From the IMG/VR virus record IMGVR_UViG_3300044984_003074: a stretch of 64,000 nucleotides of DNA, one strand, 5' to 3'. This DNA is from a virus (taxonomy: Duplodnaviria; Heunggongvirae; Uroviricota; Caudoviricetes). The notes below the pieces were generated by a model, which was given only the letters and a program-made list of their open reading frames with translations, made no database searches and was not told where the DNA came from. Position 1 is the first letter of the stretch. Every line of letters starts with the position of its first letter. Position numbers and translations under genes: made by a program. Positions 14,943 to 37,749 of the stretch are shown here, one piece after another.

Positions 14943-15674
14943 TTAGTCTTCCATTTTTCTCTCAATAGAAAGTTCTTTATCTACGACATTATTTGCCTTA
15001 TCAAATAGTTTTTGAATATGACCAGACCTTCGTAAAAATTTAAAAACTAAATTTTCATAAGACAATTCTCCTTCTTTTTCAAGACCCGATTGTCTATATT
15101 CTTTTAATTTGTTTTTAATATCATCTAAAGTTTTTTGTTCATCAGACTCAAGAGCTTTATCAATTTTTTCAGTCCAATTTTTAATTTTATTTGATAACAA
15201 ATCTTTATCTATCTCTATTTTAAATTGTTTTGGCTTGGTAACCCATTCATTATTCATTATTGAATAAACTCCTGACGCGTAGTGAGATTCTTCGGAATCT
15301 TGTGCGTATAATTCAACATCATACCCAAATATTTTAATGTTATGCTTATCGTTGAAAACTTGTTTTTTTAAATTAAATAATTCTTTGTATAATTCAGAAT
15401 CATCTTCGTATTGTTGTATGTCAACAATGATATGAAGGTCAAAGTCTGAAAATTCAGACCAATTAAAGTTCGCCAAAGAACCTGTAAGTACAACATCTTC
15501 AACAAATACGTCATCTCCAAGATATTCAATAAATTCATCGGCAATACGTTCAAGAGCCTTTCTAACCTTAGGAACCATAGTTGCTTTGTCAGGGTCATTG
15601 GAATTTTCCCAAACTTTTGGGTTTAAAGTCTTCTTAATTGAAAAACTATTAAGTATTTGTTGGAAGTTGCTCAT
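14943..15674 (-). CDS. Pol-beta superfamily nucleotidyltransferase
   Basis: 243 aa; LTGSLANFNWSEFSDFDLHIIV = hG[GS]x10DhD motif, downstream acidic DVE. Confidence 0.5.
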   Translation of the reverse strand: MSNFQQILNSFSIKKTLNPKVWENSNDPDKATMVPKVRKALERIADEFIEYLGDDVFVEDVVLTGSLANFNWSEFSDFDLHIIVDIQQYEDDSELYKELFNLKKQVFNDKHNIKIFGYDVELYAQDSEESHYASGVYSIMNNEWVTKPKQFKIEIDKDLLSNKIKNWTEKIDKALESDEQKTLDDIKNKLKEYRQSGLEKEGELSYENLVFKFLRRSGHIQKLFDKANNVVDKELSIERKMED

Positions 15675-16816: not shown

Positions 16817-18829
16817 ATGAACGACTTAATGGATGACGACGACAAAACAATGAGTAAAAAACAATCTCAATCAGAAAGCAGTACACCTGTTTTAGATAAC
16901 TTTAGTAGAGATTTGAATAGACTTGCTGAGGAAGGTAAATTAGACCCCGTAATTGGTCGTGACAAAGAGATTTTAAGAATTGCACAAATCTTATCTCGTA
17001 GAAAGAAAAATAACCCTATTATCATTGGAGAACCTGGTTGTGGTAAAACCGCTTTGGTTGAGGGATTGGCAATTAAAATTGTTACCGGAGAATGTCCGAG
17101 AAACTTGGTTGATAAAAGAATTGTAAACTTAGATTTAACTTCAGTTGTTGCAGGTACAAAGTATCGTGGTCAATTTGAAGAAAGAATGAAAGTGATTATT
17201 GAAGAACTTCGTGATAACCCAAACATTATTGTGTTTATTGATGAGATTCACACATTAGTAGGTTCTGGTAATTCTTCAGGGTCAATGGATGGTTCAAACA
17301 TTTTCAAACCCGCATTATCTCGTGGTGAACTTCAATGTATTGGTGCAACTACCCTTGATGAGTTCCGTAAGAATATTGAGAAAGACGGAGCATTGGAAAG
17401 AAGATTCCAAAAAGTAATTGTTGAACCATCATCTGTTGTTGAGACAATTGAAATCCTTAAAAATGTTCGTGACAAGTATGAGTCATTTCATAAAGTCATT
17501 TATAACGATGAGGTTATTGAAGCTTGTGTTAAATTGGCGGATAGATATATCACAGATAGAGAATTTCCTGATAAAGCATTTGATATCTTGGATGAGGTTG
17601 GTGCTCGTATGCAAACCGAGCTTAAGGTTCCTGAAATAATTGAGAAATTAAAAAAGGATGCTTCGGAGATTAAACAACAAAAAATTGATGTTGTTAAAAA
17701 ACAAAACTACGAACAGGCGGCCCAATTAAGGGACAAAGAGAAAAAAGTTTTGGCCAAATTGGAATCTGAAAAACTTAAGTTTGAAGAGTCTATGTCAGAA
17801 AATAAACAAAAAGTTAATTTGGAAGATGTTTATGATGTGGTTTCTAATATGGTTAAGATTCCTGTAAGCAAAATGAATGTTGATGATACTAAGGCTTTAT
17901 TAAACTTGGATAAAGAGTTGATAGGTAAAGTGATTGGTCAGGACGCAGCGGTTATTAAAATTGCAAAATCTATTAAAAGAAACCGTTTGGGTATCAAAGA
18001 CCCAAATCGTCCAATAGGTTCATTTGTGTTCTTAGGGTCAACAGGTGTTGGTAAAACTCACTTGGCCAAACAATTAGCTAAAGAAATGTTTGGCTCTGAG
18101 GATTCTCTTATTCGTGTGGATATGTCTGAGTACCAAGAGAAACACAGTATTTCTAAATTGGTTGGAGCACCTCCAGGATATGTTGGTTATGAAGAAGGTG
18201 GATTATTAACTGAAAAAGTTAAGAACAGACCTTACTCTGTTATCTTATTTGATGAGGTAGAAAAAGCACACAAAGATGTGTTTACAGTTTTACTTCAAAT
18301 CTTGGATGATGGTCATGTGACTGATAGTTTAGGTCGTAAGATTAATTTTAAAAATACTTTGATTATCCTAACTTCAAATTTGGGTGTTAAGAAATTACAA
18401 GATTTTGGTACAGGTATTGGATTTTCTAATAACCCTTATTCAAATGAAGAGGCAAAGAAACAAGTATTGATGAAAGAAATGAAAAACTTTTTCTCACCTG
18501 AATTTATTAACCGTATTGACGATACTATCGTATTTAACTCTTTGACTATTGATGATATCAAAAAAATCACAGAGATTGAGTTAAAAAAATTAACTGCTCG
18601 TCTTAGTGATATGAAGTACAAAGTAACTTATGATTCAACATTGGTTGATTACCTATCCAAAATTGGATTTGATGAATTATACGGGGCAAGACCTTTGAAA
18701 AGAGCAATTCAAGATAAGGTTGAGGATTTATTATCAGAAGAAGTTCTTCTTGGTAAAATGATTGAAGGTAAATCTTATGTTATCAAGGTAGATAATGATG
18801 AGGTTAAAATTCAGAAAAAAGGTAGATAA
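16817..18829 (+). CDS. ClpC/ClpE-type AAA+ unfoldase lacking N-domain, with UVR linker and ClpP-docking loop
   Basis: 670 aa; two Walker A (GEPGCGKT, GSTGVGKT), UVR motif YEQAAQLRDKEKKVLAKLE between D1 and D2, GTGIGF loop, sensor-2 GARPLKR. Confidence 0.8.
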   Translation: MNDLMDDDDKTMSKKQSQSESSTPVLDNFSRDLNRLAEEGKLDPVIGRDKEILRIAQILSRRKKNNPIIIGEPGCGKTALVEGLAIKIVTGECPRNLVDKRIVNLDLTSVVAGTKYRGQFEERMKVIIEELRDNPNIIVFIDEIHTLVGSGNSSGSMDGSNIFKPALSRGELQCIGATTLDEFRKNIEKDGALERRFQKVIVEPSSVVETIEILKNVRDKYESFHKVIYNDEVIEACVKLADRYITDREFPDKAFDILDEVGARMQTELKVPEIIEKLKKDASEIKQQKIDVVKKQNYEQAAQLRDKEKKVLAKLESEKLKFEESMSENKQKVNLEDVYDVVSNMVKIPVSKMNVDDTKALLNLDKELIGKVIGQDAAVIKIAKSIKRNRLGIKDPNRPIGSFVFLGSTGVGKTHLAKQLAKEMFGSEDSLIRVDMSEYQEKHSISKLVGAPPGYVGYEEGGLLTEKVKNRPYSVILFDEVEKAHKDVFTVLLQILDDGHVTDSLGRKINFKNTLIILTSNLGVKKLQDFGTGIGFSNNPYSNEEAKKQVLMKEMKNFFSPEFINRIDDTIVFNSLTIDDIKKITEIELKKLTARLSDMKYKVTYDSTLVDYLSKIGFDELYGARPLKRAIQDKVEDLLSEEVLLGKMIEGKSYVIKVDNDEVKIQKKGR

Positions 18830-18874: not shown

Positions 18875-19543
18875 ATGAAAGATTTGATTAAAAAAATTAT
18901 TAAAGAAACATTTGAAAATAATGAGATAAAATCTCAATCAAATCTTGATAGATTAATGAATCATTTTAAATCCCAATTTCCTGACGATTTAAAATCTAAA
19001 GTACCAATAATTGGTAAATTCATTTCAGATTATATCCAAAAAAATAATATTAATGTTAAATTTCTTAATTCTTGTTCAACAGGGTTTTCAGGTGTTAGAA
19101 CTAAGGACCAAGTTATAATTTGTTCTCCAACACAAATGTCAACTATTGGGGATTTTCTTTACACAATTTTTCACGAAATTAGACATGAGCATCAAGTTCG
19201 TGATTTAAAAATGTTAAACCCATTAACTGAATTTGACTTGGAAGATTTTGAGAATCTTGCCGACCAATATTGGGAGATGGAATTAGATGCCGACCAATTT
19301 GCAAAAAATATGGTTGCAAAAATTGTGATTAAATTAGAAATTCCAATAGATATTGCAAAAAATTTATTTTCACTTTCCCTATTTATTGAAAAATATCCTT
19401 TAATGTCTAAAATGGTCAGAGGTCATTTACAACAAATTGTTAACGGAATTAAAGACATAAAAAAATCGGGAGGAGAATATGAAGATATTCAAGACCACCC
19501 GATGGTTAAACGATATATTGATAAGTTAGAAAATTTTATCTAA
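18875..19543 (+). CDS. hypothetical protein with HExxH (HEIRH) motif
   Basis: 222 aa; possible zinc metallopeptidase. Confidence 0.25.
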   Translation: MKDLIKKIIKETFENNEIKSQSNLDRLMNHFKSQFPDDLKSKVPIIGKFISDYIQKNNINVKFLNSCSTGFSGVRTKDQVIICSPTQMSTIGDFLYTIFHEIRHEHQVRDLKMLNPLTEFDLEDFENLADQYWEMELDADQFAKNMVAKIVIKLEIPIDIAKNLFSLSLFIEKYPLMSKMVRGHLQQIVNGIKDIKKSGGEYEDIQDHPMVKRYIDKLENFI

Positions 19544-20378
19544 CAAATCTACTCATTGGGTCATATTGAACTGACTTTTTATAGTGTAATCTATAACCTA
19601 ATCCCTCAATCATTTTTCTACCCATTTCAATTCCATTGAATACATCCTCAATAACAACATACTCGTTTGGTGTGTGGTAATTGTAATATCCAATTGAGAA
19701 GTTAATACAAGAAAAATCAAATTTGTTTCTCAAGGCATAAACATCGGTATATGGATGGACCATGTATTGCATGTCTTCTTTAACCATTCCCTCAGTTAAT
19801 ACTTGGTCAATTTTTTCAAAGAATTCTGTTTCTCTATCAAATAAAATTTGACCAAAACATTTTTCAGTAATCATCCAATTCTCAGGAGCGTCAAATTGAA
19901 TCCCATAACCAACATTGGTAAAGAACTCAGGGTCTGCTTTTTTAGAACCATGACAACCAGTTTCTTCAGATACAAAGAATGCCGCTTTCAAATACGGTAA
20001 TTCTTTAAGTAATGTTAAACAAGCAAAAACTCCGCATTTATCATCACCACCAATCCCTGTAGGAAGACCGTGTAGATTGTATGCTTTAAGTGAATCTTTA
20101 ACTTCACCTTGAGCATTTAATAATTGTTCTTCATGAACAATGATTGTATCTAAATCATGAACTGTGTCTGTGTGGGAAATCACGCATGGGAAAAAGAAAT
20201 CTTCAGGTAATTCCGAATTTTCTTTTTTTGTCGCATAAACATTTTTGTTTTCATCAACATAATGTTCAATATTGTTTTCAGTTAACCAATTAACCAAAAA
20301 TTCAACCATAAGGTCTTCTTTGTATGTTTTACTAGGAACGCTAAGTACTTCCTTTAGTAAGTCTATATTTTGTGTCAT
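19536..20378 (-). CDS. M20/M28/M42-like zinc peptidase family protein
   Basis: 280 aa; ISHTDTVH, GIGGDDKCGV, FFVSEETGCHGS co-catalytic metal motifs. Confidence 0.4.
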   Translation of the reverse strand: MTQNIDLLKEVLSVPSKTYKEDLMVEFLVNWLTENNIEHYVDENKNVYATKKENSELPEDFFFPCVISHTDTVHDLDTIIVHEEQLLNAQGEVKDSLKAYNLHGLPTGIGGDDKCGVFACLTLLKELPYLKAAFFVSEETGCHGSKKADPEFFTNVGYGIQFDAPENWMITEKCFGQILFDRETEFFEKIDQVLTEGMVKEDMQYMVHPYTDVYALRNKFDFSCINFSIGYYNYHTPNEYVVIEDVFNGIEMGRKMIEGLGYRLHYKKSVQYDPMSRFVR

Positions 20379-20398: not shown

Positions 20399-21544
20399 TT
20401 AGATTTCTTCCAAATTAAATAATGAAGGTTGATATAATAAATGATTAAAATTTTCCTCACTTAATTTAACTTTTTTAAATCCAAGAGGTGTTTGTAATTC
20501 AACAATGATTTTCATATCATTTCTATCAAATTCTTTAATCTGAAATCTGTATTTTTTGTCTTTAGGTAAGTCGTACCAACTATTTAATTTGAATTTAGAA
20601 GTTATACGAGTTCTAAAATCTAAATATTCTTTTATTCCACCATTAATCTCATCACTGTTTGACTCCAAACTTTCTAACATTTCATCAAATTGTCTACCCA
20701 CATAGTTATTGAAAGATTTTGAATCAAAATACTCAGGGTCTTGATATTCATAACTGTTTTCATACCACCCACCAAATTGACCACCTCCACCGTTATTATC
20801 ACTAGCCCTTTTAAGTACACTAGCAACTAATTCTTTGGCATCACCATTGTATAAATTTGATTGTAAAGCAGCAGCATACAAATCCGACAATTTTATATCA
20901 ATCCTATCAAATCCACTATTAATGTTTGCTCCAACACTTAATAAAACATCATCAAATTCTTCTTTAATTACTTTATTGGCAACAGCATTCATTTCACTTT
21001 CTTTTTCCATTTCAAAATCACCAAGGATGTAGTCAATTTCTTTTGGAAACACATCTAATAAAATTTGAGATAATGCAATTTTAAAATCTTCATTAGTTAA
21101 ATCAAATTCTTTACCCGATAAAAGAATTGAAGAGAGGTCTTTAAGTTTATCTACATTTTCTTCATCTAACTCACCGTACACACCATACCCATCTTTAAAA
21201 TCTTGCTCTATTTGATATGAGTCCATAAAGTCATAACCGTCATATCCATTTAATGCTCTCATAAACCATATGTCATCATCACTCATCTCAAGTAAATTTA
21301 AAAGTTCTTCTTCATTTTTAAACTCTATAGTTAACATTGTTTGACCTAAAGGTGTTTTGGGTTCAATATAGTATATGGAATCATCAATGTCATATAAATC
21401 ATCTTTAGTGATTTTACCTTTAGCATAATTTCTTAAGGCAATAACAAAATTGTCGTTTGGTCCATTTGACTCATCATCAGATTCTTTAACAATTCTTTTA
21501 ATAACCTGAATTAATTCAGACTCACTTAATTTAATTTTACCCAT
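20399..21544 (-). CDS. hypothetical protein
   Basis: 381 aa ORF. Confidence 0.3.
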   Translation of the reverse strand: MGKIKLSESELIQVIKRIVKESDDESNGPNDNFVIALRNYAKGKITKDDLYDIDDSIYYIEPKTPLGQTMLTIEFKNEEELLNLLEMSDDDIWFMRALNGYDGYDFMDSYQIEQDFKDGYGVYGELDEENVDKLKDLSSILLSGKEFDLTNEDFKIALSQILLDVFPKEIDYILGDFEMEKESEMNAVANKVIKEEFDDVLLSVGANINSGFDRIDIKLSDLYAAALQSNLYNGDAKELVASVLKRASDNNGGGGQFGGWYENSYEYQDPEYFDSKSFNNYVGRQFDEMLESLESNSDEINGGIKEYLDFRTRITSKFKLNSWYDLPKDKKYRFQIKEFDRNDMKIIVELQTPLGFKKVKLSEENFNHLLYQPSLFNLEEI

Positions 21545-21622
21545 TAAAAACTATTTTTAATATAAATACCTTTTCTGTTTGGAATCTACATATTTATTTC
21601 TATCTTTGTAGTGTTAAAATAA

Positions 21623-22018
21623 GGGGATGAAATGGAATTGACTGGCATTACTACTTATTTGGGGCACGTAGTCAAACATCATCTATGACTTAAATCTGTG
21701 ATGGTAAAATTCAATTGGCAATACTTTTGCTAAGCTTTCTGCTTTAGGTTTGACTAGAGAAGAAGCTGTTGTTACTGCATAGTTCAGGGAACAACAAGGG
21801 GTCGGTTAGAACATTCAACCTAGCAACAGAAGTTCAGTATACGGGTGACAGGTTAGAGCTCGTTTAAAATAACTCTAAGACCAAGTTGTTTGCAGGTAGG
21901 TTTCTCACATACATCAGACCTGATATTTTGGAACATTGAGAACTAATGTTATCCTAAACGTGTAGTCCTGAACAATTAGGGTGAACAACACTCGGCTTCG
22001 AAGCCGACATCTCCACCA
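21623..22018 (+). ncRNA. ssrA: tmRNA-like (ssrA) gene with encoded CCA
   Basis: 5' GGGGAUGAAAUGGAAUUGACUGG resembles tmRNA 5' consensus; 3' ...UCGGCUUCGAAGCCGACAUCUCCACCA gives T-arm plus 7-bp acceptor pairing with 5' end incl. G3:U70 (Ala identity); ~396 nt; strong terminator follows. Confidence 0.55.
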
Positions 22019-22023
22019 AAAAG

Positions 22024-22050
22024 AAAACCCATCAATTGATGGGTTTTTTA
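22024..22050 (+). terminator. rho-independent terminator (AAACCCATCAATTGATGGGTTT + T-run)
   Basis: hairpin immediately 3' of tmRNA-like CCA; same hairpin core recurs at 25633-25660. Confidence 0.6.
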
Positions 22051-22357
22051 TTTTATTATACTTAACGATTAGATAACTTTCGAAAGTAGATATACAGTCC
22101 AAAAAATAATCCCGCAATACCATACAACACGAAGTTCGCTTTCCATAAACTTCCTGTCAGTAATATTAGGGAATATTGTACGGCATCGAAACCAAAAGGA
22201 TTGAAGAATAATGCGAGCATTAAAAATACCTGTGATAGGTTGTCTTGGAGGCTCCGTCTCCAAGTTTTCATTTTTTTCATCATCCTCCATTTACAGATAT
22301 TTAAAATTTATGTCGTAAGACTTTTTGTTTTTCTTATAAATATCGTATCTTTGTATT

Positions 22358-23059
22358 ATGTTGAAGTGTTATAAGCATATTGGGATAGATAATAATGATT
22401 GGTGCTGGGAATGCCAAGAATTAACTGACGCTATTAGATTTGAATCAATTAAATTATTAAATAAAATGAAAACAAATAAGGTAATATTTTTGGATAATGA
22501 CGGGGTAATCTGTCTCTCCAATAATTGGGGTGGTCGAGCCAAAAAATGGAAGAAGTATAAGAAACTTAATCCTGAAGCAACTAGCGACACTGTAGCACCC
22601 GTTGAAGTACGATTTGATGATTTTGATAAGAAAGCCGTTAAAGTATTAAATGATGTCTTAGAATTAACAGGTGCTGAACTTGTTGTTTCTTCTGATTGGA
22701 GATTACACGCAACATTGGAAGAAATTGGTGAATATTACCTGTCAAAAGGAATCTCAAAGGCACCAATAGCATTCACCAAACGATACATCGGTTGTGATAA
22801 ACCTGATGAGTTTGTATGGAGACGAAGTACAATGCATGAACAACAAAGATGTATTGAGGTTAGACAATATCTAACAGACCATCCCGAAATCACACATTGG
22901 GCTTGTATTGACGATTTACAGTTAGGAGGGAAAGATTCTTATGGTTATGAACAAGTATGGGGATTATCTAACTTTGTTCATACACCAAGAGAAAATGAAG
23001 GAATCAAACAATCTGGTGTTAAAGAAAAATTATTGGAATATTTAACTAATAATGATTGA
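22358..23059 (+). CDS. HAD-superfamily hydrolase
   Basis: 233 aa; motif I VIFLDNDGVI, motif IV WACIDDL. Confidence 0.45.
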   Translation: MLKCYKHIGIDNNDWCWECQELTDAIRFESIKLLNKMKTNKVIFLDNDGVICLSNNWGGRAKKWKKYKKLNPEATSDTVAPVEVRFDDFDKKAVKVLNDVLELTGAELVVSSDWRLHATLEEIGEYYLSKGISKAPIAFTKRYIGCDKPDEFVWRRSTMHEQQRCIEVRQYLTDHPEITHWACIDDLQLGGKDSYGYEQVWGLSNFVHTPRENEGIKQSGVKEKLLEYLTNND

Positions 23060-23625: not shown

Positions 23626-24021
23626 ATGAGTACGGTAATTAAAAATCCAACCCTTTTTGTTGATATTGATGGTACTTTAGTTAAGTACAGAAAATTCAGT
23701 GAACTTGCGGAGTCAGTATTAACTCCAATCCAAGATGTTATTGATTTTGTTAATGGTCATTTTAACTCAGGAGCTGTTATTATTATCACAACTGCTCGCC
23801 CTGAATCATATAGAGAATTTACAGAAAACGAACTAAACATCCTTGGGATTAAATTTAATCAAATAGTTATGAATTGTGGCCGAGGGACAAGAGTTGTTTT
23901 AAATGACGTTGACCCTGACAAACCAGAATTACCAAGAGCTATTGGTATAAACTTAAAAAGAGATGAAGGTTTGAAAGATATCCAAATACCATCTAATATT
24001 AGTCCTTATGAATCAAATTAA
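23626..24021 (+). CDS. small HAD-like phosphatase
   Basis: 131 aa; LFVDIDGTL motif I, IIITTARP motif II. Confidence 0.4.
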   Translation: MSTVIKNPTLFVDIDGTLVKYRKFSELAESVLTPIQDVIDFVNGHFNSGAVIIITTARPESYREFTENELNILGIKFNQIVMNCGRGTRVVLNDVDPDKPELPRAIGINLKRDEGLKDIQIPSNISPYESN

Positions 24022-25917: not shown

Positions 25918-25959
25918 GAACTATACTGATATGTCAATTTTTCTTACATATTTTTTCTG

Positions 25960-26044
25960 CGGAAAATGAGAGACTCGAACTCTCGCATCATTTTATCGAT
26001 GTACGGTTTAGCAAACCGCTGCATTACCACTCTGCCAACCTTCC
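25960..26044 (-). tRNA. tRNA-Ser (anticodon GCU), type II
   Basis: GGAAGGTTGGCAGAGTGG...loop TTGCTAA, long variable arm, T-arm GAGAGTTCGAGTCTCTC. Confidence 0.7.
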
Positions 26045-26049
26045 TTATA

Positions 26050-26394
26050 TTATATTAGGTGTAGTAAGATATATGACAATTTATATCCTGTAAAAGCGCC
26101 CAATGCGGATGGTATTGGGAATACAATTAATTTACCTAAATCAGTTACGTATTTTGGTCTATTTACAATTTTACCCATAAAAAAGTAATATATTAAATAA
26201 CCCATTAAAACCGCAATATCTGTACGTGTTGCAATAAAAACTACTAAAGTGGCCCCTAAGAACCCAAAAGTAAAATTATCCCTTACACCTTCCCAAACTT
26301 CTTTAGTTGATGCACTTTTATATTCTTTTACAATCTTTTTGAATTGGGCTTTATGCCCCTTTTTCTTTTTTTCTATTATTTCTGTTGTTTCCAT
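26050..26394 (-). CDS. hypothetical membrane protein
   Basis: 114 aa, two TM segments. Confidence 0.3.
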   Translation of the reverse strand: METTEIIEKKKKGHKAQFKKIVKEYKSASTKEVWEGVRDNFTFGFLGATLVVFIATRTDIAVLMGYLIYYFFMGKIVNRPKYVTDLGKLIVFPIPSALGAFTGYKLSYILLHLI

Positions 26395-26395
26395 G

Positions 26396-26470
26396 TTGGA
26401 ATAGATGGACTCGAACCATCGACTTTCACCGTATCAGGATGACACTCTAACCAACTGAGTTATATTCCAT
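26396..26470 (-). tRNA. tRNA-Ile (anticodon GAU)
   Basis: D-arm CTCAGTTGGTTAGAG, loop CTGATAC, T-arm GATGGTTCGAGTCCATC. Confidence 0.65.
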
Positions 26471-26561
26471 TATTATTTTTACAAAGATAGTTAATTTATC
26501 CCATAAAAAAAATCCCCCTGACTTTTAATCAGAGGGATTTAGTATTTAAATCTCTTCTATA

Positions 26562-27140
26562 TTAAAAGTATGTTTGTTCAAAGTATAATACTTGGAACTT
26601 ATCTTTACTATCAATTAAACTCAATGCATTAATTAAGTCGTTATACTCAACTACGGCACCTTTTTGAATTTTTCTAAATTTAGTTAAAACATCAAATGTT
26701 GTAATATCATCAGAAAATACTGTTTGTGAATCTTTGTTATATGCTTTCATTAATGCCAATTCCATTTCATAAGCTCCATTAATAATTTCTTCCAAACTAT
26801 TGAAAGTATGACTAATTTTTGCTGATGGGATTTCAGGGATAATATTGAAATCGGTCATATATTGTTGTAAAATCTCAGAATGACCTAATTCATCTTTTGC
26901 CTCATTTTCAAAAAACGCTGCCGCTTTTTTGTAGTTCATATCCGCACACCAGTTAGTTGCCGCTCTGTAATAATAATGTGCAGTATATTCGTCTTTGATT
27001 CTATCAGTTAAGATTTTAATTGTCTTATCTGATAACGAGTATAATTTAGGTGACTTTGTTAAACCTGGTTTGTTTTCCGCCTCATTCAAGTGCATCACTT
27101 TAAATAATTGTTCCTTTGTTAATGTTAATTTCTTTTCCAT
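26562..27140 (-). CDS. ferritin-like protein (start at internal Met; ORF-track N-terminus is read-through of tRNA-His)
   Basis: EYTAHYYYRAA ... NEAKDELGHSEIL ... ferritin ExxH/di-iron motifs; 5' part of listed ORF 26562..27287 overlaps tRNA gene. Confidence 0.5.
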   Translation of the reverse strand: MEKKLTLTKEQLFKVMHLNEAENKPGLTKSPKLYSLSDKTIKILTDRIKDEYTAHYYYRAATNWCADMNYKKAAAFFENEAKDELGHSEILQQYMTDFNIIPEIPSAKISHTFNSLEEIINGAYEMELALMKAYNKDSQTVFSDDITTFDVLTKFRKIQKGAVVEYNDLINALSLIDSKDKFQVLYFEQTYF

Positions 27141-27176
27141 ACTAATAAATAGTCGGTATAGATGAAAAATATTAGG

Positions 27177-27249
27177 GTGACTAACGGGAATCGAACCCGT
27201 GACAACTTGGACCACAACCAAGCGCTCTACCAACTGAGCTATAGCCACC
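27177..27249 (-). tRNA. tRNA-His (anticodon GUG)
   Basis: GGTGGCTATAGCTCAGTTGGTAGAGC, loop TTGTGGT, discriminator C. Confidence 0.75.
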
Positions 27250-27254
27250 ATATG

Positions 27255-27324
27255 TTGCGTGTTTGGGTTTCGAACCCAATTGACCATCCTTATGAGAGAT
27301 AGTTCTTTTCCTCTAAGTCACGCA
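27255..27324 (-). tRNA. tRNA with CAU anticodon (Met/fMet/Ile2), short atypical D-arm
   Basis: acceptor TGCGTGA/ACACGCA, AC stem TATCT/GGATG loop CTCATAA, T-arm TTGGGTTCGAAACCCAA. Confidence 0.45.
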
Positions 27325-27330
27325 GTTTAG

Positions 27331-27403
27331 AGGTTCTATTAGGATTCGAACCTAAACTCCGAATTCCGTAGATTCGTGTGCTAATCCGTTACACCATAAA
27401 ACC
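27331..27403 (-). tRNA. tRNA-Arg (anticodon ACG)
   Basis: AC stem CGAAT/ATTCG loop CTACGGA; T-arm TTAGGTTCGAATCCTAA. Confidence 0.7.
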
Positions 27404-27485
27404 CTAATTACCGATTATTGTCCCATTTAACAATTATCATCAAAACAATCCACAAAATTAAAAACCACATACTTTATTTATTTAG

Positions 27486-27556
27486 TTACCCGACCAAGAC
27501 TCGAACTTGGAACGACTGTACCAAAAACAGTTGTGTTACCATTACACCATCGGGCA
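27486..27556 (-). tRNA. tRNA-Gln (anticodon UUG)
   Basis: AC stem ACTGT/ACAGT loop TTTTGGT; T-arm CCAAGTTCGAGTCTTGG. Confidence 0.7.
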
Positions 27557-27562
27557 ATACTG

Positions 27563-27636
27563 TGGACCATCCAGGACTCGAACCTGGGACCTTCTCGTTA
27601 TGAGCGAGCTACTCTAACCGACTGAGTTAAAGGTCC
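27563..27636 (-). tRNA. tRNA-Met (anticodon CAU)
   Basis: D-arm CTCAGTCGGTTAGAG, loop CTCATAA, T-arm CCAGGTTCGAGTCCTGG. Confidence 0.65.
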
Positions 27637-27786
27637 AAAATTGACTACTACCTGACTCCTTTCGAACTTTGCAGGCTCGTATCATTCAATAATAGTAGTC
27701 CAAGGCGTTACGCACCCATCTGATAACTTTACTTCTCTTGAGTCCGGATAAGCGCTTACCAACTCAGGGGTTGTTTCCTTGTTTGT

Positions 27787-27866
27787 GGGAGTGGAGGGAT
27801 TCGAACCCCCAATGTCGTAGACCACAGATTTACAGTCTGCTAAGCGACCAATTGCTCAACACTCCC
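27787..27866 (-). tRNA. tRNA-Tyr (anticodon GUA), long variable arm
   Basis: GGGAGTGTTGAGCAATTGG..., loop CTGTAAA, T-arm TGGGGGTTCGAATCCCTCC. Confidence 0.7.
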
Positions 27867-28168
27867 AATTATAAAACAGACAATGAGGATTCTCCGATAT
27901 TTCAGTCTTAGGGGACTAGACGGGCATCATACCCGTGTTTACCCTCGGCGGTCTCTTGGTTTGGTTGATTACTCCGAACCTCACCCCTACACTACCACTG
28001 ACGTAAGTTATAGGTCTGTCTTAATTCTTTTAGGAAAACAGAAGATGGTTGCGTGGACATCTGTTTTTACGATTAGCGTTACTTAGGTGAATACCTCCCA
28101 ACTCCGATTGTACTAGCCGGCATTCACTCTCGAACTATTAGTACAATCATTCCCCAATCAACCTTTTG
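27867..28168 (-). ncRNA. GC-rich structured non-tRNA segment inside tRNA array (stable RNA or intron-like)
   Basis: ~300 nt at ~50% GC vs ~33% genome; multiple hairpins (CGGGCATCATACCCG; GTGAAT/ATTCAC); no convincing ORF (listed 67-aa ORF rejected). Confidence 0.35.
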
Positions 28169-28249
28169 CACGCTTGGAGGGATTCGAACCCCCACCAACG
28201 GTGTTGGAGACCGTGATGCTACCGTTGCACTACAAACGTATTTATTTAC
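28169..28249 (-). tRNA. tRNA-Trp (anticodon CCA)
   Basis: AC stem ACGGT/ACCGT loop CTCCAAC; T-arm GGGGGTTCGAATCCCTC. Confidence 0.7.
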
Positions 28250-28253
28250 TGCT

Positions 28254-28297
28254 CAAATTTAAGAGTATTTACTGCTCAAATTTAAGATTTTTGAGGT
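28254..28297. repeat. 2x tandem direct repeat of 21-23 bp (ATTTACTGCTCAAATTTAAGA) between tRNA-Trp and tRNA-Cys
   Basis: copies at 28254-28274 and 28277-28297. Confidence 0.8.
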
Positions 28298-28303
28298 CGG
28301 TAC

Positions 28304-28376
28304 AGGATTTGAACCTGTGTGAATAGTTTTGCAGACTACCGCCTAAGCCACTCGGCCAACCGACCCTATCTAATTT
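28304..28376 (-). tRNA. tRNA-Cys (anticodon GCA)
   Basis: GGTCGGTTGGCCGAGTGGCTTAGGC, loop CTGCAAA, T-arm ACAGGTTCAAATCCTGT. Confidence 0.7.
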
Positions 28377-28746
28377 AAAGAACTTCAGTTAGTATTCTCC
28401 ATTCTTTTAATGTGTTTCCTTCAAAGGTAACCTCAACCGGTTTCCCTTTTAATTTATCCACAGAGTCAACCTTAGCTTCCTTCAGTAAAGTCGAAACATA
28501 TCTCATAATCTCAGAATACCATCCATCCCTATCTTCTTCAGACCATTGGGTGTGTTCCGTCCATTTTATTTGTTCTGAATCCCAATTGGCTCTTGAATCA
28601 CCAACACCCCAACTTCCACCACTTAATGTGACGTGAAGACCTAACATTGCTCCTTGATATCCACCAAGACCAAAACTTACCGACTCAATTTTCCCTAATT
28701 TCTTTTCCATATTCTTTAATTTTAATATCCTTAAGGGCTTCCTCAA
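28375..28746 (-). CDS. hypothetical protein
   Basis: 123 aa ORF (start may be internal Met at ~28710). Confidence 0.3.
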   Translation of the reverse strand: MRKPLRILKLKNMEKKLGKIESVSFGLGGYQGAMLGLHVTLSGGSWGVGDSRANWDSEQIKWTEHTQWSEEDRDGWYSEIMRYVSTLLKEAKVDSVDKLKGKPVEVTFEGNTLKEWRILTEVL

Positions 28747-28845
28747 TTTGTTTTCCTAACCATTCTTTCCACTCGTCAAAGGTAAACTTTGAATTTGGAT
28801 TCTCCAAGAGAAAGTTTTTATATTGTGTTTCTAATGTTGCCATAA

Positions 28846-29445
28846 TTAATCTAAACTATTTGGGTAATATAATAATGTTGGGTTCTTCTTTTGGATATCA
28901 ATTTCAGGATATCTATCACTAAATGATTTGACATCAAATCGAGATGTAATTAAATGTCTACCATTTTTGGTAGGTATTACTTTTTCAACCTTAAATCCAA
29001 TTGGTCTAAGGTCTTTAATAAAATCGGCGACTTCATATAAAAAATCAGGGTCAGTAGTATCAATATCAACAATCCATCTTTTTTCTTTAGTCTTTATTTG
29101 ACCAACAACTGAATCAAATAACCCTTTTTGGTTTTGAACCCCATTCTTAATTCTTTCCGCCAAATTTGACAACATATCCAAAGAAACATCTTTATGATTT
29201 TGTTTTTGAATATGAATATAAGCTCTTGCTTTAAACATTTCACAAAGTTGTTTTACCTCATCGTACCTTCTTTCCAAATGGTCAATTGAATCAATACAAT
29301 ATGTTTTAATTGTTCTAACCGATTGATGATTATCTCTTTCATTTTCAGGTTGGTCTTTCTTACGTTTAAACACATACAACATATAGAAATCACCCTTTTC
29401 TTCAAAGTTTAACAACGGTTTTATTATCTCTAAATTATCTATCAT
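28846..29445 (-). CDS. hypothetical protein
   Basis: 199 aa ORF. Confidence 0.3.
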   Translation of the reverse strand: MIDNLEIIKPLLNFEEKGDFYMLYVFKRKKDQPENERDNHQSVRTIKTYCIDSIDHLERRYDEVKQLCEMFKARAYIHIQKQNHKDVSLDMLSNLAERIKNGVQNQKGLFDSVVGQIKTKEKRWIVDIDTTDPDFLYEVADFIKDLRPIGFKVEKVIPTKNGRHLITSRFDVKSFSDRYPEIDIQKKNPTLLYYPNSLD

Positions 29446-29998
29446 ATCTTTTTATTTTTTTATACTGTAAATTTGAAATAATTAGTTCCATCAAAATCAA
29501 ATTCCGCAATTACATCATTAGTTCCCCAAACAAACCTAATATAAGAACTAATGTTGGAATAAAGATTACCTGAATTTCCAGGAAATTGGATTATAATTTT
29601 TCTCAATTTTCCAACAACAATGTTATTAATTCCAGGTTCCCCATAAATGTTTTTAACTTCAGTGGTAATTCTAACCCCACTATAATAAATTGGGTTTTGA
29701 TGTTTTAATATTTTTCGGAAATAATCAATCTCTTTCATTTTAATATCCTATTTCTTTTTTAACTTCCCATTGTTTATCGATAGGAATTCTTTCAATTCTT
29801 TCAACAGGTACAAACCCGTCAAACCCTTTATCTTTAACATCCTCAAAATGTTCTATGGTATCCAATTGGAACCCGAACTTATATCGGATGTATTGGAACT
29901 TTTCTCCGTCCCAATATGCCATGTGGTTGTTCCTACAAAATCCATTGTACCAACCTTCAACCATTTCATTTTTTGGTATCATAATTTCTATTTTTTTG

Positions 29999-30072
29999 TG
30001 ACCCCTCCGAGACTCGAACTCGGGACTCCTTCATTAAAAGTGAAGTGCTCTAGCCAACTGAGCTAAGAGGTC
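29999..30072 (-). tRNA. tRNA-Lys (anticodon UUU)
   Basis: GACCTCTTAGCTCAGTTGGCTAGAGC, loop CTTTTAA, T-arm CCGAGTTCGAGTCTCGG. Confidence 0.75.
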
Positions 30073-30476: not shown

Positions 30477-30549
30477 TGGTAACGGTCAGAATCGAACTGA
30501 CGACACCTTGTTCTTCAAACAAGTGCTCTACCGACTGAGCTACGTTACC
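30477..30549 (-). tRNA. tRNA-Phe (anticodon GAA)
   Basis: GGTAACGTAGCTCAGTCGGTAGAGC, loop TTGAAGA, T-arm GTCAGTTCGATTCTGAC. Confidence 0.75.
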
Positions 30550-30697
30550 AAATAAAGATAATGATGGAGTACCCGTCTCGCTCCAATCTTAACTGCTTTC
30601 CTGAGTTTTATGAGGCCTCGGCAGAAAGGGTGATGAACTATTGCTCCATTCGGAATTGTCGACATTCCATTGAATGGTTAGAACCATTATCTTAGTA

Positions 30698-30770: not shown

Positions 30771-30774
30771 TTGT

Positions 30775-30846: not shown

Positions 30847-30908
30847 TAAATAAATCTTTTACAAAGATACAATCAATATTTCAAAGAGCAAAAGATTATA
30901 GAATAAAA

Positions 30909-33251: not shown

Positions 33252-33267
33252 AAACTATAAATATCCT

Positions 33268-37068: not shown

Positions 37069-37749
37069 ATGAATATAGGCGAAGATTTTAAAAATTATTA
37101 TGTAAAACATTTAGGTAAACCATCTTTGGATTTACATAATTTTAATTCTCAAATTGAGAATTCGATGACTCCATACATTTTGGAAGAAAGAGAAATGAGA
37201 GTAACTCAAATGGATATCTTTTCAAGATTAATGAGAGACCGAATTTTATGGGTTGCTGGACCTGTTAATGACCACATGTCAACAATAGTCCAAGCTCAGT
37301 TAATGTTCTTAGATTCATCAGATAAATTGGACATTACGATGCATATCGACTCTCCTGGTGGAAGTGTTAAGTCAGGACTTTCAATGGTAGATGTTATGGA
37401 TTACATTTCTTGTGATATTAGAACAATTAACACAGGTATGGCGGCATCTATGGGGTCCGTATTGCTGGGGGCTGGAACTAAAGGTAAAAGAAGTTCATTG
37501 AGATTCTCAAAAACCATGTTACACCAATCTTCAGGTGGTGCAGGAGGTAATATCCAAGATGCTCGTATCAATATGAGGGAATGGGAAAAAACAAATAAAA
37601 TTCTTTTTGATTTGTTAGGTTCTTATTGTGGTAAAACTGCGGAACAAGTTACTTTGGATGCTACTCGTGATTTGTGGTTAACTGCGGATGAAGCACTTGA
37701 ATACGGGATTATTGATGAAGTTGTTACAACAAAAAAGAAGGGTGTTTAA
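37069..37749 (+). CDS. clpP: ATP-dependent Clp protease proteolytic subunit ClpP
   Basis: 226 aa; HIDSPGGSV, catalytic Ser in TINTGMAASMGSVLL, His in MLHQSSGGAGG; terminator overlaps stop. Confidence 0.8.
   Translation: MNIGEDFKNYYVKHLGKPSLDLHNFNSQIENSMTPYILEEREMRVTQMDIFSRLMRDRILWVAGPVNDHMSTIVQAQLMFLDSSDKLDITMHIDSPGGSVKSGLSMVDVMDYISCDIRTINTGMAASMGSVLLGAGTKGKRSSLRFSKTMLHQSSGGAGGNIQDARINMREWEKTNKILFDLLGSYCGKTAEQVTLDATRDLWLTADEALEYGIIDEVVTTKKKGV

What the first reader, a model, noticed from the sequence alone, without database searches (positions are those of the whole stretch)
21560..22050. Phage-encoded tmRNA-like gene with an atypical tag region
A ~396-nt noncoding stretch starts GGGGAUGAAAUGGAAUUGAC and ends UCGGCUUCGAAGCCGACAUCUCCACCA. 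The two termini form a 7-bp acceptor stem with a G3:U70 wobble, which is the alanine identity element of tmRNA. The 3' end also carries a T-arm and a genomically encoded CCA. A perfect intrinsic terminator follows directly. tmRNA genes in phage genomes are uncommon and poorly characterised. I could not find a canonical ...ALAA tag frame. Candidate reading frames end ...EEAVVTA* or ...LSFLL*, so the tag, if real, is non-standard. A plus-strand TATAAATA motif sits ~55 nt upstream at 21561-21568.
Basis: partly seen in the sequence, partly recalled or inferred. Interest (0 to 1): 0.8.

Follow-up and report, generated by a model that had tools for sequence, protein, structure and literature searches.

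The report
Phage tmRNA with long conserved tag
A large uncultivated T4-like phage, probably of Flavobacteria, carries its own complete ribosome-rescue RNA (tmRNA); it adds an unusually long 21-residue tag that is conserved across about 80 related phage tmRNAs and often sits next to phage-encoded Clp protease genes.

Summary
Window 21623-22018 (+) is a complete one-piece tmRNA gene. Rfam RF00023 scores it 47.9 bits (gathering 47); ARAGORN misses it. I recovered about 127 homologs from viral contigs (80 distinct full-length) and used them to test each feature.

- **tRNA-like domain:** G3·U70 in 80/80, discriminator A in 79/80, covarying T-stem and P2.
- **Tag:** PK1, then resume codon GGC (21717-21719) with A at -4 and a pyrimidine at -5 in 80/80. 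The open frame is 21 codons, GNTFAKLSALGLTREEAVVTA, with UAG (21780-21782) in the helix-5 loop.
- **Downstream:** PK2, PK3 and two hairpins all covary. No PK4 second stem was found.
- **Expression:** a Bacteroidota-type promoter (TTTG-N19-TATCTTTG) and a terminator flank the gene.

It is conserved across the family with most variation at third codon positions. The window's T-loop has 6 nt rather than 7.

The family is essentially absent from bacterial genomes and from GenBank phages. Its neighbours are a ClpC-like unfoldase lacking the N-domain and an M20-like peptidase. The window also encodes ClpP, and some relatives encode SmpB.

Phage tmRNAs are already known, so this is a new member of a known kind. 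That the tag is a degron for the phage's own Clp protease is an untested hypothesis.

The parts
21578..21608 (+). Candidate Bacteroidota sigma-A-type promoter. TTTG (-33) is at 21578-21581, a 19-nt spacer follows, and TATCTTTG (-7, consensus TAnnTTTG) is at 21601-21608, ending 14 nt before the mature 5' end.
   Evidence: Read. TAnnTTTG lies within 30 nt of G1 in 70 of 87 distinct family upstream regions versus 78 of 1740 shuffles. The consensus itself is from my own knowledge of Bacteroides promoters.
21623..22018 (+). tmRNA (ssrA) gene, 396 nt, one-piece, with encoded CCA.
   Evidence: Rfam RF00023 47.9 bits, model positions 1-374 of 374. Family nhmmer E = 3e-98.
21623..21629 (+). Acceptor stem 5' strand, GGGGAUG. 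G3 forms the G3:U70 wobble.
   Evidence: G:U at this pair in 80 of 80 family sequences. Helix 94.7% paired with 2 compensated pairs.
21642..21669 (+). P2 long helix, 5' strand (gene positions 20-47). It pairs with 21958-21988.
   Evidence: 23 pairs, 96-100% paired, 11 with changes on both sides.
21670..21703 (+). Pseudoknot PK1. S1 is 21670-21674 with 21686-21690. S2 is 21677-21682 with 21698-21703.
   Evidence: Two sequence classes keep the same H-type topology. 71 of 80 sequences form it versus 34 of 400 shuffles.
21717..21782 (+). Tag reading frame. The resume codon is GGC (21717-21719). It has 21 sense codons encoding GNTFAKLSALGLTREEAVVTA, then stop UAG at 21780-21782.
   Evidence: The frame is open for 20-24 codons in 80 of 80 homologs. 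A at -4, pyrimidine at -5 and G at +1 in 80 of 80. Third-position entropy is highest and the synonymous fraction is 0.264 versus 0.151 and 0.060 in shifted frames. ARAGORN picks the same frame in about 20 relatives.
21767..21796 (+). Helix 5 (gene 145-151/168-174 plus 153-155/163-165) with the stop codon in the apical loop.
   Evidence: The MFE fold of the window reproduces it. The stop codon is enclosed by a hairpin in 79 of 80 sequences.
21804..21835 (+). Pseudoknot PK2. S1 is gene 182-185/195-198 and S2 is gene 187-190/210-213.
   Evidence: 88.6% and 100% paired in the subclade, with an A-U to G-C compensation in S2.
21842..21882 (+). Pseudoknot PK3. S1 is gene 220-223/237-240 and S2 is gene 229-236/251-260.
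   Evidence: Both stems 100% paired, with a C-G to G-C compensation in S1.
21893..21922 (+). Hairpin (gene 271-275/296-300) with a 20-nt loop, in the place where PK4 usually lies.
   Evidence: 100% paired, 3 of 5 pairs compensated. No second pseudoknot stem is supported.
21930..21954 (+). Hairpin (gene 308-315/323-332) with a near-invariant GAGAA loop.
   Evidence: 88.6% paired, 2 compensated pairs. Also found by the family-wide screen.
21958..21988 (+). P2 long helix, 3' strand (gene positions 336-366), including the conserved ACGUGUAGU segment.
   Evidence: High posterior probability in the Rfam alignment.
21992..22007 (+). T-arm. The 5-bp stem is UCGGC/GCCGA and the loop is 6 nt, UUCGAA (the canonical loop is 7 nt).
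   Evidence: Stem 100% paired with 3 compensated pairs. The 6-nt loop occurs in 6 of 80 distinct sequences with a covarying closing pair; 68 of 80 have 7 nt.
22008..22018 (+). Acceptor stem 3' strand CAUCUCC (22008-22014), discriminator A (22015) and encoded CCA (22016-22018).
   Evidence: Discriminator A in 79 of 80. CCA is encoded in 35 of 80.
22022..22049 (+). Intrinsic terminator: a 12-bp stem with a 4-nt loop, then a T-run.
   Evidence: A hairpin plus T-run lies downstream in 75 of 90 distinct family 3' flanks.
16817..18829 (+). ClpC-like two-ring AAA+ unfoldase (670 aa). It lacks the N-terminal domain and retains an IGF-type ClpP-docking loop. Its linkage to the tmRNA is conserved.
   Evidence: Pfam AAA, AAA_lid_9, UVR, AAA_2 and ClpB_D2-small. 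PDB ClpC 6em8 E = 1e-223, aligned to residues 147-802. GIGFS aligns with the ClpC VGF loop. It lies 3-6 kb upstream on the same strand in 35 of 50 loci with enough flank.
19536..20378 (-). M20/M42-like peptidase (280 aa). It is the neighbour most often conserved next to the tmRNA.
   Evidence: Weak Pfam M42/M20 hits. PHROG 4191 'peptidase' at 5e-32. Present 1.5-2.9 kb upstream in 62 of 90 loci.
20399..21544 (-). 381-aa ORF of unknown function, divergently oriented, immediately upstream of the tmRNA. It is syntenic in relatives.
   Evidence: No Pfam, NCBIfam or PHROG hit. Homologs lie adjacent to the tmRNA in 33 of 101 loci.
37069..37749 (+). ClpP-family serine protease (226 aa) with the catalytic Ser, His and Asp aligned. 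It is a possible partner of the ClpC-like ATPase.
   Evidence: Pfam CLP_protease 4e-56. 39% identity to E. coli ClpP over 200 aa. Caveat: it also hits PHROG head-maturation-protease families.

Best explanation
Window 21623-22018 is a functional, phage-encoded one-piece tmRNA (ssrA) gene.

**Shown by sequence and comparison**
- It is a separate transcription unit with a Bacteroidota-type promoter and an intrinsic terminator.
- It has a tRNA-Ala-like domain: a 7-bp acceptor stem, G3:U70, A73, CCA and a T-arm.
- It has a long P2 helix and pseudoknot PK1.
- Its internal reading frame has no start codon. The frame begins at GGC 13 nt after PK1, behind the conserved pyrimidine-A at -5/-4.
- The frame has 21 codons, with the UAG stop in the loop of helix 5. 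PK2, PK3 and two hairpins follow.

**Inferred from the established trans-translation pathway**
- The host RNA polymerase transcribes the gene, and RNase P cuts off a leader of roughly 10 nt.
- Alanyl-tRNA synthetase charges the RNA through G3:U70 and A73.
- SmpB, from the host or from the phage as in some relatives, delivers it with EF-Tu to ribosomes stalled without a stop codon.
- The nascent chain is passed to the alanine. The ribosome then switches to the tag frame and adds (A)GNTFAKLSALGLTREEAVVTA before terminating normally.
- This frees ribosomes during infection, for example ribosomes stranded on host or phage mRNAs cut by nucleases.
- It also marks the truncated products, most likely for AAA+ proteolysis through the hydrophobic V-x-V-A carboxy terminus.

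The tag belongs to a phage-specific family with the pattern G-N-[VT]-[LFY]-x-[KN]-[ML]-x-x-x-G-L-[IVL]-[RA]-x-x-x-V-x-V-A. It is unlike the 9-residue host-type tag.
For: **Detection**
- Rfam tmRNA hit over the full model, above gathering.
- Syntenic relatives score 51-110 bits.

**Structure**
- Family of about 127 homologs, 80 distinct and full length.
- G3:U70 in 80 of 80, with a covarying T-stem and P2.
- The structure model is 96.5% paired versus 36-44% when slid. 24 pairs are compensated versus 4-13. 0 of 500 shuffles reach the observed values.
- PK1 forms in 71 of 80 sequences versus 8.5% of shuffles. The stop codon is inside helix 5 in 79 of 80.

**Tag frame**
- Resume context A(-4), pyrimidine(-5) and G(+1) in 80 of 80.
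- The frame is open for 20-24 codons in all homologs, and the other two frames are closed.
- Third-position entropy is 1.33 versus 0.93 and 0.69. The synonymous fraction is 0.264 versus 0.151 and 0.060 in shifted frames.
- ARAGORN independently calls the same long tag in about 20 relatives.

**Expression and origin**
- Promoter element in 70 of 87 upstream regions and terminator in 75 of 90 downstream regions.
- Phage context: T4-type portal, terminase and prohead protease, plus 23 tRNAs.
- The family is found in only 2 of 185,579 species genomes. Both are Flavobacteriaceae MAG bins that look like phage contigs.
- SmpB genes lie beside the tmRNA in 5 related loci.
Against: - The window copy scores only just above the Rfam threshold.
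- ARAGORN does not call it.
- Its T-loop is one nucleotide short.
- Two P2 positions are mismatched in the window, C20/A366 and A35/C351.
- No PK4 second stem was found.
- No SmpB gene is present in these 64 kb.
- The tag lacks the LAA-type ending.
- Nothing here shows expression, charging or tagging. All functional steps are inferred from homology.
Confidence: 0.88

Rival explanations
1. Orthogonal tag and protease pair. The RNA is a working tmRNA, but its long tag is a dedicated degron for the phage's own N-domain-less ClpC-like unfoldase working with the phage ClpP. The adjacent peptidase finishes the breakdown. In this reading the tag is not aimed at host ClpXP. This refines the best explanation rather than contradicting it.
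For: - ClpC-like gene 3-6 kb upstream on the same strand in 35 of 50 loci, and peptidase in 62 of 90.
- For the window's tag type, 26 of 31 loci have it.
- The ClpC retains an IGF-type ClpP-docking loop.
- The ClpP in the window has an intact catalytic triad.
- The tag differs from the native Bacteroides tag GETNYALAA (10.1101/2025.03.18.644028).
- Precedent: a long divergent tag switched to another protease in Mesoplasma (Gur and Sauer 2008, cited through PMC8138137).
Against: - The linkage follows clades, so it may reflect only conserved gene order.
- Subfamilies with equally long tags lack the ClpC neighbour.
- ClpC normally needs an adaptor that docks on the N-domain, which is missing here (PMC8138137).
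- The ClpP-like ORF also matches phage head-maturation-protease families.
- There is no biochemical evidence.
Confidence: 0.25
2. Decoy or inhibitor. The RNA works mainly through its tRNA-like domain and titrates SmpB or otherwise blocks host trans-translation. The tag frame would not be used. This was suggested for the TLD-only element of mycobacteriophage DS6A.
For: - TLD-only phage elements and their inhibitory potential are described in PMC4131195.
- The window's atypical 6-nt T-loop and borderline model score could hint at altered function.
Against: - The tag frame is maintained at constant length, with a codon-position pattern typical of translated sequence, across 55 distinct 21-codon versions.
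- The resume-context nucleotides, PK1 and the stop in helix 5 are all conserved.
- Some relatives add their own SmpB rather than depleting it.
Confidence: 0.05
3. Non-functional remnant. The segment would be a decaying captured host ssrA or an attachment-site fragment, or the window would be a bacterial contig.
For: - ssrA is a frequent prophage integration site, and phages often carry 3' fragments of it (own knowledge). The GenBank phage hits to the 3' 35 nt are of that kind.
- ARAGORN does not call the gene in the window.
Against: - The gene is full length, with a promoter and a terminator.
- All diagnostic positions are intact.
- Compensatory changes across 80 distinct sequences show purifying selection on the structure.
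- The window has T4-like structural genes and a 22-tRNA array.
- The family is essentially absent from bacterial genomes.
Confidence: 0.03
4. Short tag. Translation would resume further downstream, as in ARAGORN's 8-residue calls for relatives (AEEAPVVA, ATSNVAVA). Only about the last 8 residues would then be added.
For: ARAGORN reports 8-residue tags for about 20 relatives.
Against: - In the window the corresponding codon is AGA, not GCN, and ARAGORN makes no call at all.
- The first 13 codons show coding-type conservation. For example, Gly11 has entropy 0.13, 0.13 and 1.34 at codon positions 1, 2 and 3.
- The pyrimidine-A context at -5/-4 and the 10-17-nt spacing from PK1 fit only the upstream GGC.
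Confidence: 0.04

Closest known systems
Bacterial one-piece tmRNA (SsrA; Rfam RF00023), e.g. E. coli SsrA
   Same: - tRNA-Ala-like domain with G3:U70, A73 and CCA.
- P2 helix and PK1 before the resume codon.
- U/C-A at -5/-4, corresponding to U85/A86 of E. coli.
- A frame without a start codon, and a stop codon in helix 5.
- Downstream pseudoknots.
   Different: - Encoded by a T4-like phage.
- Tag of 21 codons ending VVTA instead of about 10 ending LAA.
- 6-nt T-loop.
- Two hairpins where PK4 usually lies.
- Barely reaches the Rfam threshold, and ARAGORN misses it.
Known phage-encoded tmRNAs: Bxz1-type mycobacteriophages, Bacillus phage G, and tmRNAs of huge phages
   Same: - Complete ssrA genes on large lytic phage genomes rich in tRNAs and translation genes (PMC4131195, PMC7162821).
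- The phage G tag AKLNITNNELQVA also ends in VA rather than LAA (PMC12484599).
   Different: - No sequence relationship was detected. GenBank phages match only the 3' 35 nt.
- Different host phylum (Bacteroidota-type promoter, Flavobacteriaceae bins).
- A family-wide conserved 21-residue tag and linkage to ClpC-like and peptidase genes. I did not find either described in the searchable literature.
Bacteroides/Bacteroidota host SsrA tag (GETNYALAA)
   Same: - The probable host phylum.
- Both tags begin with Gly followed by an acidic or amide residue, and both end in Ala.
   Different: - 9 residues versus 21.
- LAA versus V-x-V-A terminus (10.1101/2025.03.18.644028).
- I could not retrieve a host Flavobacterium tmRNA for direct comparison.
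Mesoplasma/Mycoplasma long ssrA tag read by Lon (Gur and Sauer 2008)
   Same: A long, divergent tag that co-evolved with a protease other than ClpXP. This is the model for the speculative reading that the phage tag pairs with the phage's own protease (PMC8138137).
   Different: - That case is a bacterium lacking ClpXP and is experimentally proven.
- Here the candidate partner is a phage ClpC-like/ClpP pair, and nothing has been tested.

Membership tests
tmRNA (SsrA, RF00023) | Covariance-model score at or above the curated gathering threshold. | tested here: met
   47.9 bits versus 47, over the full model length, E = 7e-16. This is borderline. Relatives score 50.6-110.
tmRNA (SsrA, RF00023) | tRNA-like domain with a 7-bp acceptor stem, G3:U70, discriminator A73 and a 3' CCA. 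| tested here: met
   Read directly. G:U in 80 of 80. A73 in 79 of 80. CCA is encoded in the window and in 35 of 80.
tmRNA (SsrA, RF00023) | T-arm with a canonical 7-nt T-loop (UUCRANY). | tested here: not met
   The window has a 5-bp stem and a 6-nt loop, UUCGAA. 68 of 80 relatives have 7 nt. 6 distinct sequences share the 6-nt form with a covarying closing pair. U54, U55, C56 and A58 equivalents are present.
tmRNA (SsrA, RF00023) | A long P2 helix in place of an anticodon arm, joining the tRNA-like domain to the rest of the RNA. | tested here: met
   23 pairs, 96-100% paired, 11 compensated.
tmRNA (SsrA, RF00023) | Pseudoknot PK1 immediately upstream of the resume codon. | tested here: met
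   S1 is 48-52/64-68 and S2 is 55-60/76-81, 13 nt before the resume codon. Two sequence classes share the topology. 71 of 80 form it versus 34 of 400 shuffles.
tmRNA (SsrA, RF00023) | An internal tag frame without a start codon, with conserved frame-setting nucleotides upstream (U85/A86 in E. coli). | tested here: met
   An in-frame UAA lies 3 codons upstream and there is no start codon. A at -4 and a pyrimidine at -5 in 80 of 80. Coding-type variation.
tmRNA (SsrA, RF00023) | Stop codon of the tag presented in helix 5. | tested here: met
   The window's UAG is in the apical loop of 145-151/168-174. The stop is enclosed in 79 of 80.
tmRNA (SsrA, RF00023) | Three downstream pseudoknots, PK2-PK4. 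These are typical but known to be replaceable. | tested here: inconclusive
   PK2 and PK3 are supported on both stems. The PK4 position holds two covarying hairpins, and no second stem was supported.
tmRNA (SsrA, RF00023) | Tag ending in a hydrophobic Ala-rich degron (typically ...LAA). | tested here: not met
   The window tag ends VVTA. Family endings are TVA, AVA, VAA and VVA. The C-terminal Ala is kept in 50 of 52 tags. A divergent tag sequence does not rule out membership of the tmRNA family.
tmRNA (SsrA, RF00023) | Detected by ARAGORN. | tested here: not met
   No call in the window. 43 of 93 family members are called.
tmRNA (SsrA, RF00023) | Alanylation, SmpB and EF-Tu binding, and trans-translation activity. 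| not testable with these tools
   This needs biochemistry or infected-cell proteomics.
tmRNA (SsrA, RF00023) | A cognate SmpB partner is available. | tested here: inconclusive
   SmpB of 142-146 aa is encoded next to the tmRNA in L124, L014, L043, L015 and L115. None is found in this 64-kb window. Host SmpB is presumably available.
Phage-encoded tmRNA (as opposed to host ssrA or an att fragment) | Full-length gene within a phage genome, conserved among related phages. | tested here: met
   T4-type portal, terminase and prohead protease, plus 23 tRNAs, in the window. Homologs lie on viral contigs of up to 321 kb. Only 2 of 185,579 bacterial species genomes have it, both in phage-like contigs.
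ClpC-type unfoldase (neighbouring gene 16817-18829) | Two AAA+ rings, a short M-domain, a ClpP-docking (V/I)GF loop and an N-terminal adaptor-binding domain. | tested here: not met
   The rings, a UVR-type middle motif and a GIGF loop are present. The N-domain is absent: the alignment starts at ClpC residue ~147. NCBIfam scores are below every equivalog cut-off. It is ClpC-like, not a canonical ClpC.

The most novel reading that the evidence does not exclude
This phage lineage may carry a self-contained, orthogonal ribosome-rescue and proteolysis system.

- Its tmRNA, with a phage SmpB in some members, appends a 22-residue two-part tag. The first part is a conserved amphipathic G-N-x-x-x-K-M...G-L segment. 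The second is an acidic stretch and a V-x-V-A terminus.
- The tag would be read by the co-located N-domain-less ClpC-like unfoldase and the phage ClpP, not by host ClpXP.
- The adjacent M20-like peptidase would complete the recycling to amino acids.
- This would let the phage clear ribosomes stranded on degraded mRNAs and reclaim amino acids independently of the host's quality control.
Probability: 0.25. Interest if true: 0.8.

Novelty: new member of a known kind. Interest (0 to 1): 0.5.

Why it matters
Why phages carry tmRNA genes is unresolved, and published surveys mostly stop at an ARAGORN call.

This work defines a coherent family specific to phages.
- It has about 80 distinct sequences.
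- Standard tools miss about half of them: ARAGORN of 93, and the window copy sits at the Rfam threshold.
- The tag is clearly under selection at the peptide level and is unlike the host-type tag.
- The family is physically linked to a Clp unfoldase, a peptidase and, in some members, SmpB.

That gives a concrete experiment: which protease reads this tag, and does the phage need it? It also provides a candidate tag and protease pair, orthogonal to the host's, for use in Bacteroidota.

For annotation, it shows that phage tmRNAs are under-counted.

Tried and rejected
- **ARAGORN** on the window and on 21500-22120 made no tmRNA call.
- **blastn** of the locus and of the best relative against GenBank phages found no match, or only the 3' 35 nt.
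- **An all-against-all column-pair screen** on a MAFFT alignment of 80 sequences was too noisy in the variable middle. G-U-rich false helices appeared, so I switched to segment-wise analysis.
- **My first structure string** had the 271-275/296-300 hairpin off by one (49% paired). I corrected it.
- **A PK4 second stem** (UUCUC 280-284 with GAGAA 316-320) is rejected. Relatives have UUCCC opposite an invariant GAGAA, so there is no compensation.
- **A pairing partner for the invariant GGGUC block** (gene 177-181) was not found.
It is closed after 3 codons in other clades.
- **ARAGORN's 8-residue tags** for relatives are rejected as truncated readings.
- **TATAAATA as the promoter** is set aside in favour of the TTTG/TAnnTTTG pair.
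- **SmpB in the window** was not found, using either E. coli or phage SmpB queries.
- **Tag type versus ClpC presence** as a test of coupling: the association is real but follows clades, so it does not discriminate between descent and function.
- **The genome-collection scan** was meant to find the bacterial donor lineage. It returned only two phage-like Flavobacteriaceae contigs and seven chance hits, so the donor remains unknown.
Full report
**1. Observation.**
The RNA starts at 21623 with GGGGAUGAAAUGGAAUUGAC and ends at 22018 with ...UCGGCUUCGAAGCCGACAUCUCCACCA. Gene positions 1-7 pair with 386-392, with G3 opposite U. An unpaired A and an encoded CCA follow. A 12-bp hairpin with a T-run lies at 22022-22049.

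Rfam's tmRNA model RF00023 matches exactly 21623-22018 on the + strand over its whole length. The score is 47.9 bits against a gathering score of 47, with E = 7.5e-16 for the 64-kb window. ARAGORN finds 23 tRNAs in the window but no tmRNA. In the Rfam alignment the two ends and the PK1/resume region align with high posterior probability, and the middle aligns poorly.

**2. Relatives.**
- Four viral contigs share the exact 5' 20-mer.
- Four others carry a homolog of the divergent 381-aa gene at 20399-21544. Three of these have a tmRNA at the same relative position, scoring 66-110 bits.
Many are on contigs of 100-321 kb.
- nhmmer found the full gene in about 127 loci. 92 are full length and 80 are distinct.
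- The same block occurs in only 9 places in one genome for each of 185,579 bacterial and archaeal species. Only two of those are family members. Both are in Flavobacterium or Flavobacteriaceae MAG bins, and one is a 248-kb contig with a tRNA cluster.
- No GenBank phage record has the family.

The window itself is phage. It has a T4-type portal, large terminase and prohead protease. Its terminase is at most 30% identical to any deposited phage.

**3. Tag.**
In every homolog the frame that starts at the position homologous to window GGC 21717-21719 is open for 20-24 codons, and for 21 codons in 63 of 80. The other two frames are full of stops.

The window tag is GNTFAKLSALGLTREEAVVTA, with stop UAG at 21780-21782.

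Several lines fix this as the translated frame:
- Upstream of the resume codon, A at -4 is invariant (80/80), -5 is a pyrimidine (80/80) and +1 is G (80/80). By my knowledge of E. coli tmRNA, these correspond to the U85/A86 frame-setting nucleotides.
- The resume codon lies 10-17 nt after PK1, and 13 nt after it in the window.
- Among 55 distinct 21-codon versions, mean entropy is 0.93, 0.69 and 1.33 at codon positions 1, 2 and 3.
- Synonymous differences make up 26% of codon differences in this frame, against 15% and 6% in the shifted frames.
- The pattern holds for the first codons as well. Gly11, for example, has entropy 0.13, 0.13 and 1.34.

This argues against the 8-residue readings that ARAGORN gives for some relatives. 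For about 20 relatives ARAGORN itself reports the long tag.

In the window an in-frame UAA lies three codons upstream with no start codon between, so this is not an ordinary ORF.

Of 62 distinct tags, G1, N2, G11, L12, V18, V20 and A21 are nearly fixed.

The documented native Bacteroides tag is the 9-residue GETNYALAA (10.1101/2025.03.18.644028).

**4. Structure.** Positions below are gene positions; add 21622 for window coordinates.

| Element | Gene positions | Support |
|---|---|---|
| Acceptor stem | 1-7 / 386-392 | G3:U70 in 80/80 |
| T-arm | 370-374 / 381-385 | 3-4 pair types at stem positions 1, 2 and 5 |
| P2 | 20-47 / 336-366 | many compensated pairs |
| PK1 | S1 48-52/64-68; S2 55-60/76-81 | 71/80 versus 34/400 shuffles |
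| Helix 5 | 145-151/168-174; 153-155/163-165 | stop codon enclosed in 79/80 |
| PK2 | 182-185/195-198; 187-190/210-213 | subclade covariation |
| PK3 | 220-223/237-240; 229-236/251-260 | subclade covariation |
| Hairpin | 271-275 / 296-300 | 100% paired, 3 compensated |
| Hairpin | 308-315 / 323-332 | 88.6% paired |

PK1 occurs in two sequence classes with unrelated stem sequences but the same H-type topology.

For the window's subclade (11 sequences, alignment A2) I wrote a full model covering the acceptor, P2, T-arm, PK2, PK3 and the two hairpins. On this model:
- 96.5% of cells pair, against 36-44% when partners are slid.
- 24 pairs have changes on both sides, against 4-13.
- No shuffle of 500 reaches the observed values.

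Because I derived the model from these sequences, the paired percentage is biased upward. The compensated-pair counts are the more meaningful figure.

I found no support for a PK4 second stem and no partner for the invariant GGGUC block.

The window's T-loop has 6 nt (UUCGAA). This form occurs in 6 of 80 distinct sequences with a covarying closing pair (C-G or U-A). It has therefore been maintained rather than being a lesion private to this copy.

**5. Expression signals.**
TTTG (21578-21581), a 19-nt spacer and TATCTTTG (21601-21608) match the Bacteroides-type -33/-7 promoter consensus TTTG/TAnnTTTG, which I know from the literature on Bacteroides promoters. The motif ends 14 nt before G1, which would leave a short leader for RNase P.

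TAnnTTTG occurs within 30 nt of G1 in 70 of 87 distinct upstream regions, against 4.5% of shuffles. A hairpin plus T-run follows in 75 of 90.

CCA is encoded in only 35 of 80, so many members need a CCA-adding enzyme.

**6. Neighbourhood.**
- *Unfoldase.* The gene at 16817-18829 is a two-ring Clp unfoldase closest to ClpC (PDB 6em8, E = 1e-223). It aligns from ClpC residue ~147, so it lacks the N-domain. Its GIGFS aligns with the ClpC VGF ClpP-docking loop in a fragment I supplied from memory, which matched at 48% identity.
- *ClpP.* The window also encodes a ClpP-family protease at 37069-37749 (Pfam 4e-56). It is 39% identical to E. coli ClpP, with the Ser, His and Asp aligned. It also matches PHROG head-maturation-protease families. 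However, the window already has a T4-type prohead protease.
- *Linkage.* Among loci with enough flank, the ClpC-like gene lies 3-6 kb upstream on the same strand in 35 of 50. An M20/M42-like peptidase (window 19536-20378) lies 1.5-2.9 kb upstream in 62 of 90. Downstream genes are not conserved.
- *Clade structure.* Loci with tags of the window's type have the ClpC neighbour in 26 of 31 cases with at least 6 kb of flank. The GNVYxNME...ATSxVA(A) and ...ADYAVAA subfamilies lack it.
- *SmpB.* Five loci encode an SmpB of 142-146 aa near the tmRNA, 80-100 nt away in two of them. None is found in this window.

**7. Mechanism.**
What is shown is the anatomy and its conservation. What is inferred is the standard trans-translation cycle: RNase P processing, alanylation through G3:U70 and A73, SmpB and EF-Tu delivery to non-stop ribosomes, a template switch at GGC, addition of 22 residues counting the charged Ala, and termination at UAG.

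The fate of tagged proteins is inferred from the hydrophobic V-x-V-A terminus and from the neighbouring Clp genes. I give the basic reading a probability of 0.88. I give about 0.25 to the further idea that the tag is read by the phage's own ClpC-like/ClpP pair. The precedent for that idea is the long Mesoplasma tag that switched to Lon (Gur and Sauer 2008, cited in PMC8138137).

**8. Comparison and novelty.**
Phage tmRNAs are on record in Bxz1-type mycobacteriophages and Bacillus phage G (PMC4131195). They are also on record in huge phages, together with SmpB, where they were found with ARAGORN (PMC7162821). The phage G tag AKLNITNNELQVA also ends in VA (PMC12484599).

Full-text searches found no description of this family, its tag or its Clp linkage. 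The library is incomplete, however.

The RNA meets the defining tmRNA features except for a canonical T-loop and an LAA-type tag ending. I therefore class it as a new member of a known kind. The family-level features give it moderate interest.

Noticed in passing
window 25959-35435 (- strand) and 57490-57578 (+): There is an array of 22 tRNA genes on the minus strand plus one more tRNA elsewhere. Together they cover 19 amino acids. Only tRNA-Ala is missing, and the tmRNA is the one Ala-accepting RNA in the window.
   Followed up: partly
window 31589-31669 (-): A second tRNA-Gln (UUG) is 81 nt long and scores only 35.6 bits in Rfam, against 60 bits for the other tRNA-Gln at 27485-27556. It may carry an insertion or be degenerate.
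   Followed up: no
window 48327-49409 (+), 22358-23059 (+), 23626-24021 (+), 14943-15674 (-): This looks like an RNA-repair set: a T4 Rnl1-type RNA ligase, a HAD domain of the 'Swiss Army Knife RNA repair' type directly downstream of the tmRNA, a PNKP-like HAD phosphatase (weak hit), and a nucleotidyltransferase-fold protein. It suggests defence against tRNA- or mRNA-cleaving host nucleases, which would fit a need for ribosome rescue.
   Followed up: no
window 51254-52669 (+): The thymidylate synthase ORF is 471 aa. Its Pfam match is split into two stretches spanning residues 6-390 of a 266-position profile. This suggests an insertion of roughly 150-200 aa, perhaps an intein or another inserted domain.
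   Followed up: no
window 18875-19543 (+): A 222-aa ORF between the ClpC-like gene and the peptidase contains an HEIRH (HExxH-like) motif. It has no Pfam, NCBIfam or PHROG hit. It could be a third proteolysis-related gene in the cluster. Homologs occur in 8 loci.
   Followed up: partly
window 21799-21803 (gene positions 177-181): The GGGUC block just after helix 5 is invariant across the family, but I found no covarying pairing partner. It may be a protein- or ribosome-contact site.
   Followed up: partly
L080, L034, L010, L109 (tag DEMSTMTFEDLMAFVGADYAVAA); L054, L070, L119 (tag AEELSSFTFEDAMAFVGADYAVAA): This is a more distant group of viral-contig tmRNAs with 23-24-residue tags. They have a different conserved core and an AVAA ending. 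No ClpC-like gene or peptidase lies within 7-12 kb upstream.
   Followed up: partly
L124 2818-3252, L014 6551-6943, L043 3106-3540, L115 5130-5552, L015 8912-9046: Phage-encoded SmpB genes of 142-146 aa (28-38% identical to E. coli SmpB) with the basic C-terminal tail. They lie within 0.1-4.5 kb of the tmRNA. These phages therefore carry both partners of trans-translation.
   Followed up: partly
L026 and L028 (tmRNA 423-425 nt): A 26-nt insertion (CCGUUACUCCAACCAAGUUGGUGUAAC) lies directly after helix 5. It looks like an extra hairpin.
   Followed up: no
window 26562-27287 (-) and 36162-36650 (+): A ferritin/rubrerythrin-like gene sits inside the tRNA array. An HNH endonuclease gene lies about 0.4 kb upstream of the ClpP-like gene.
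   Followed up: no
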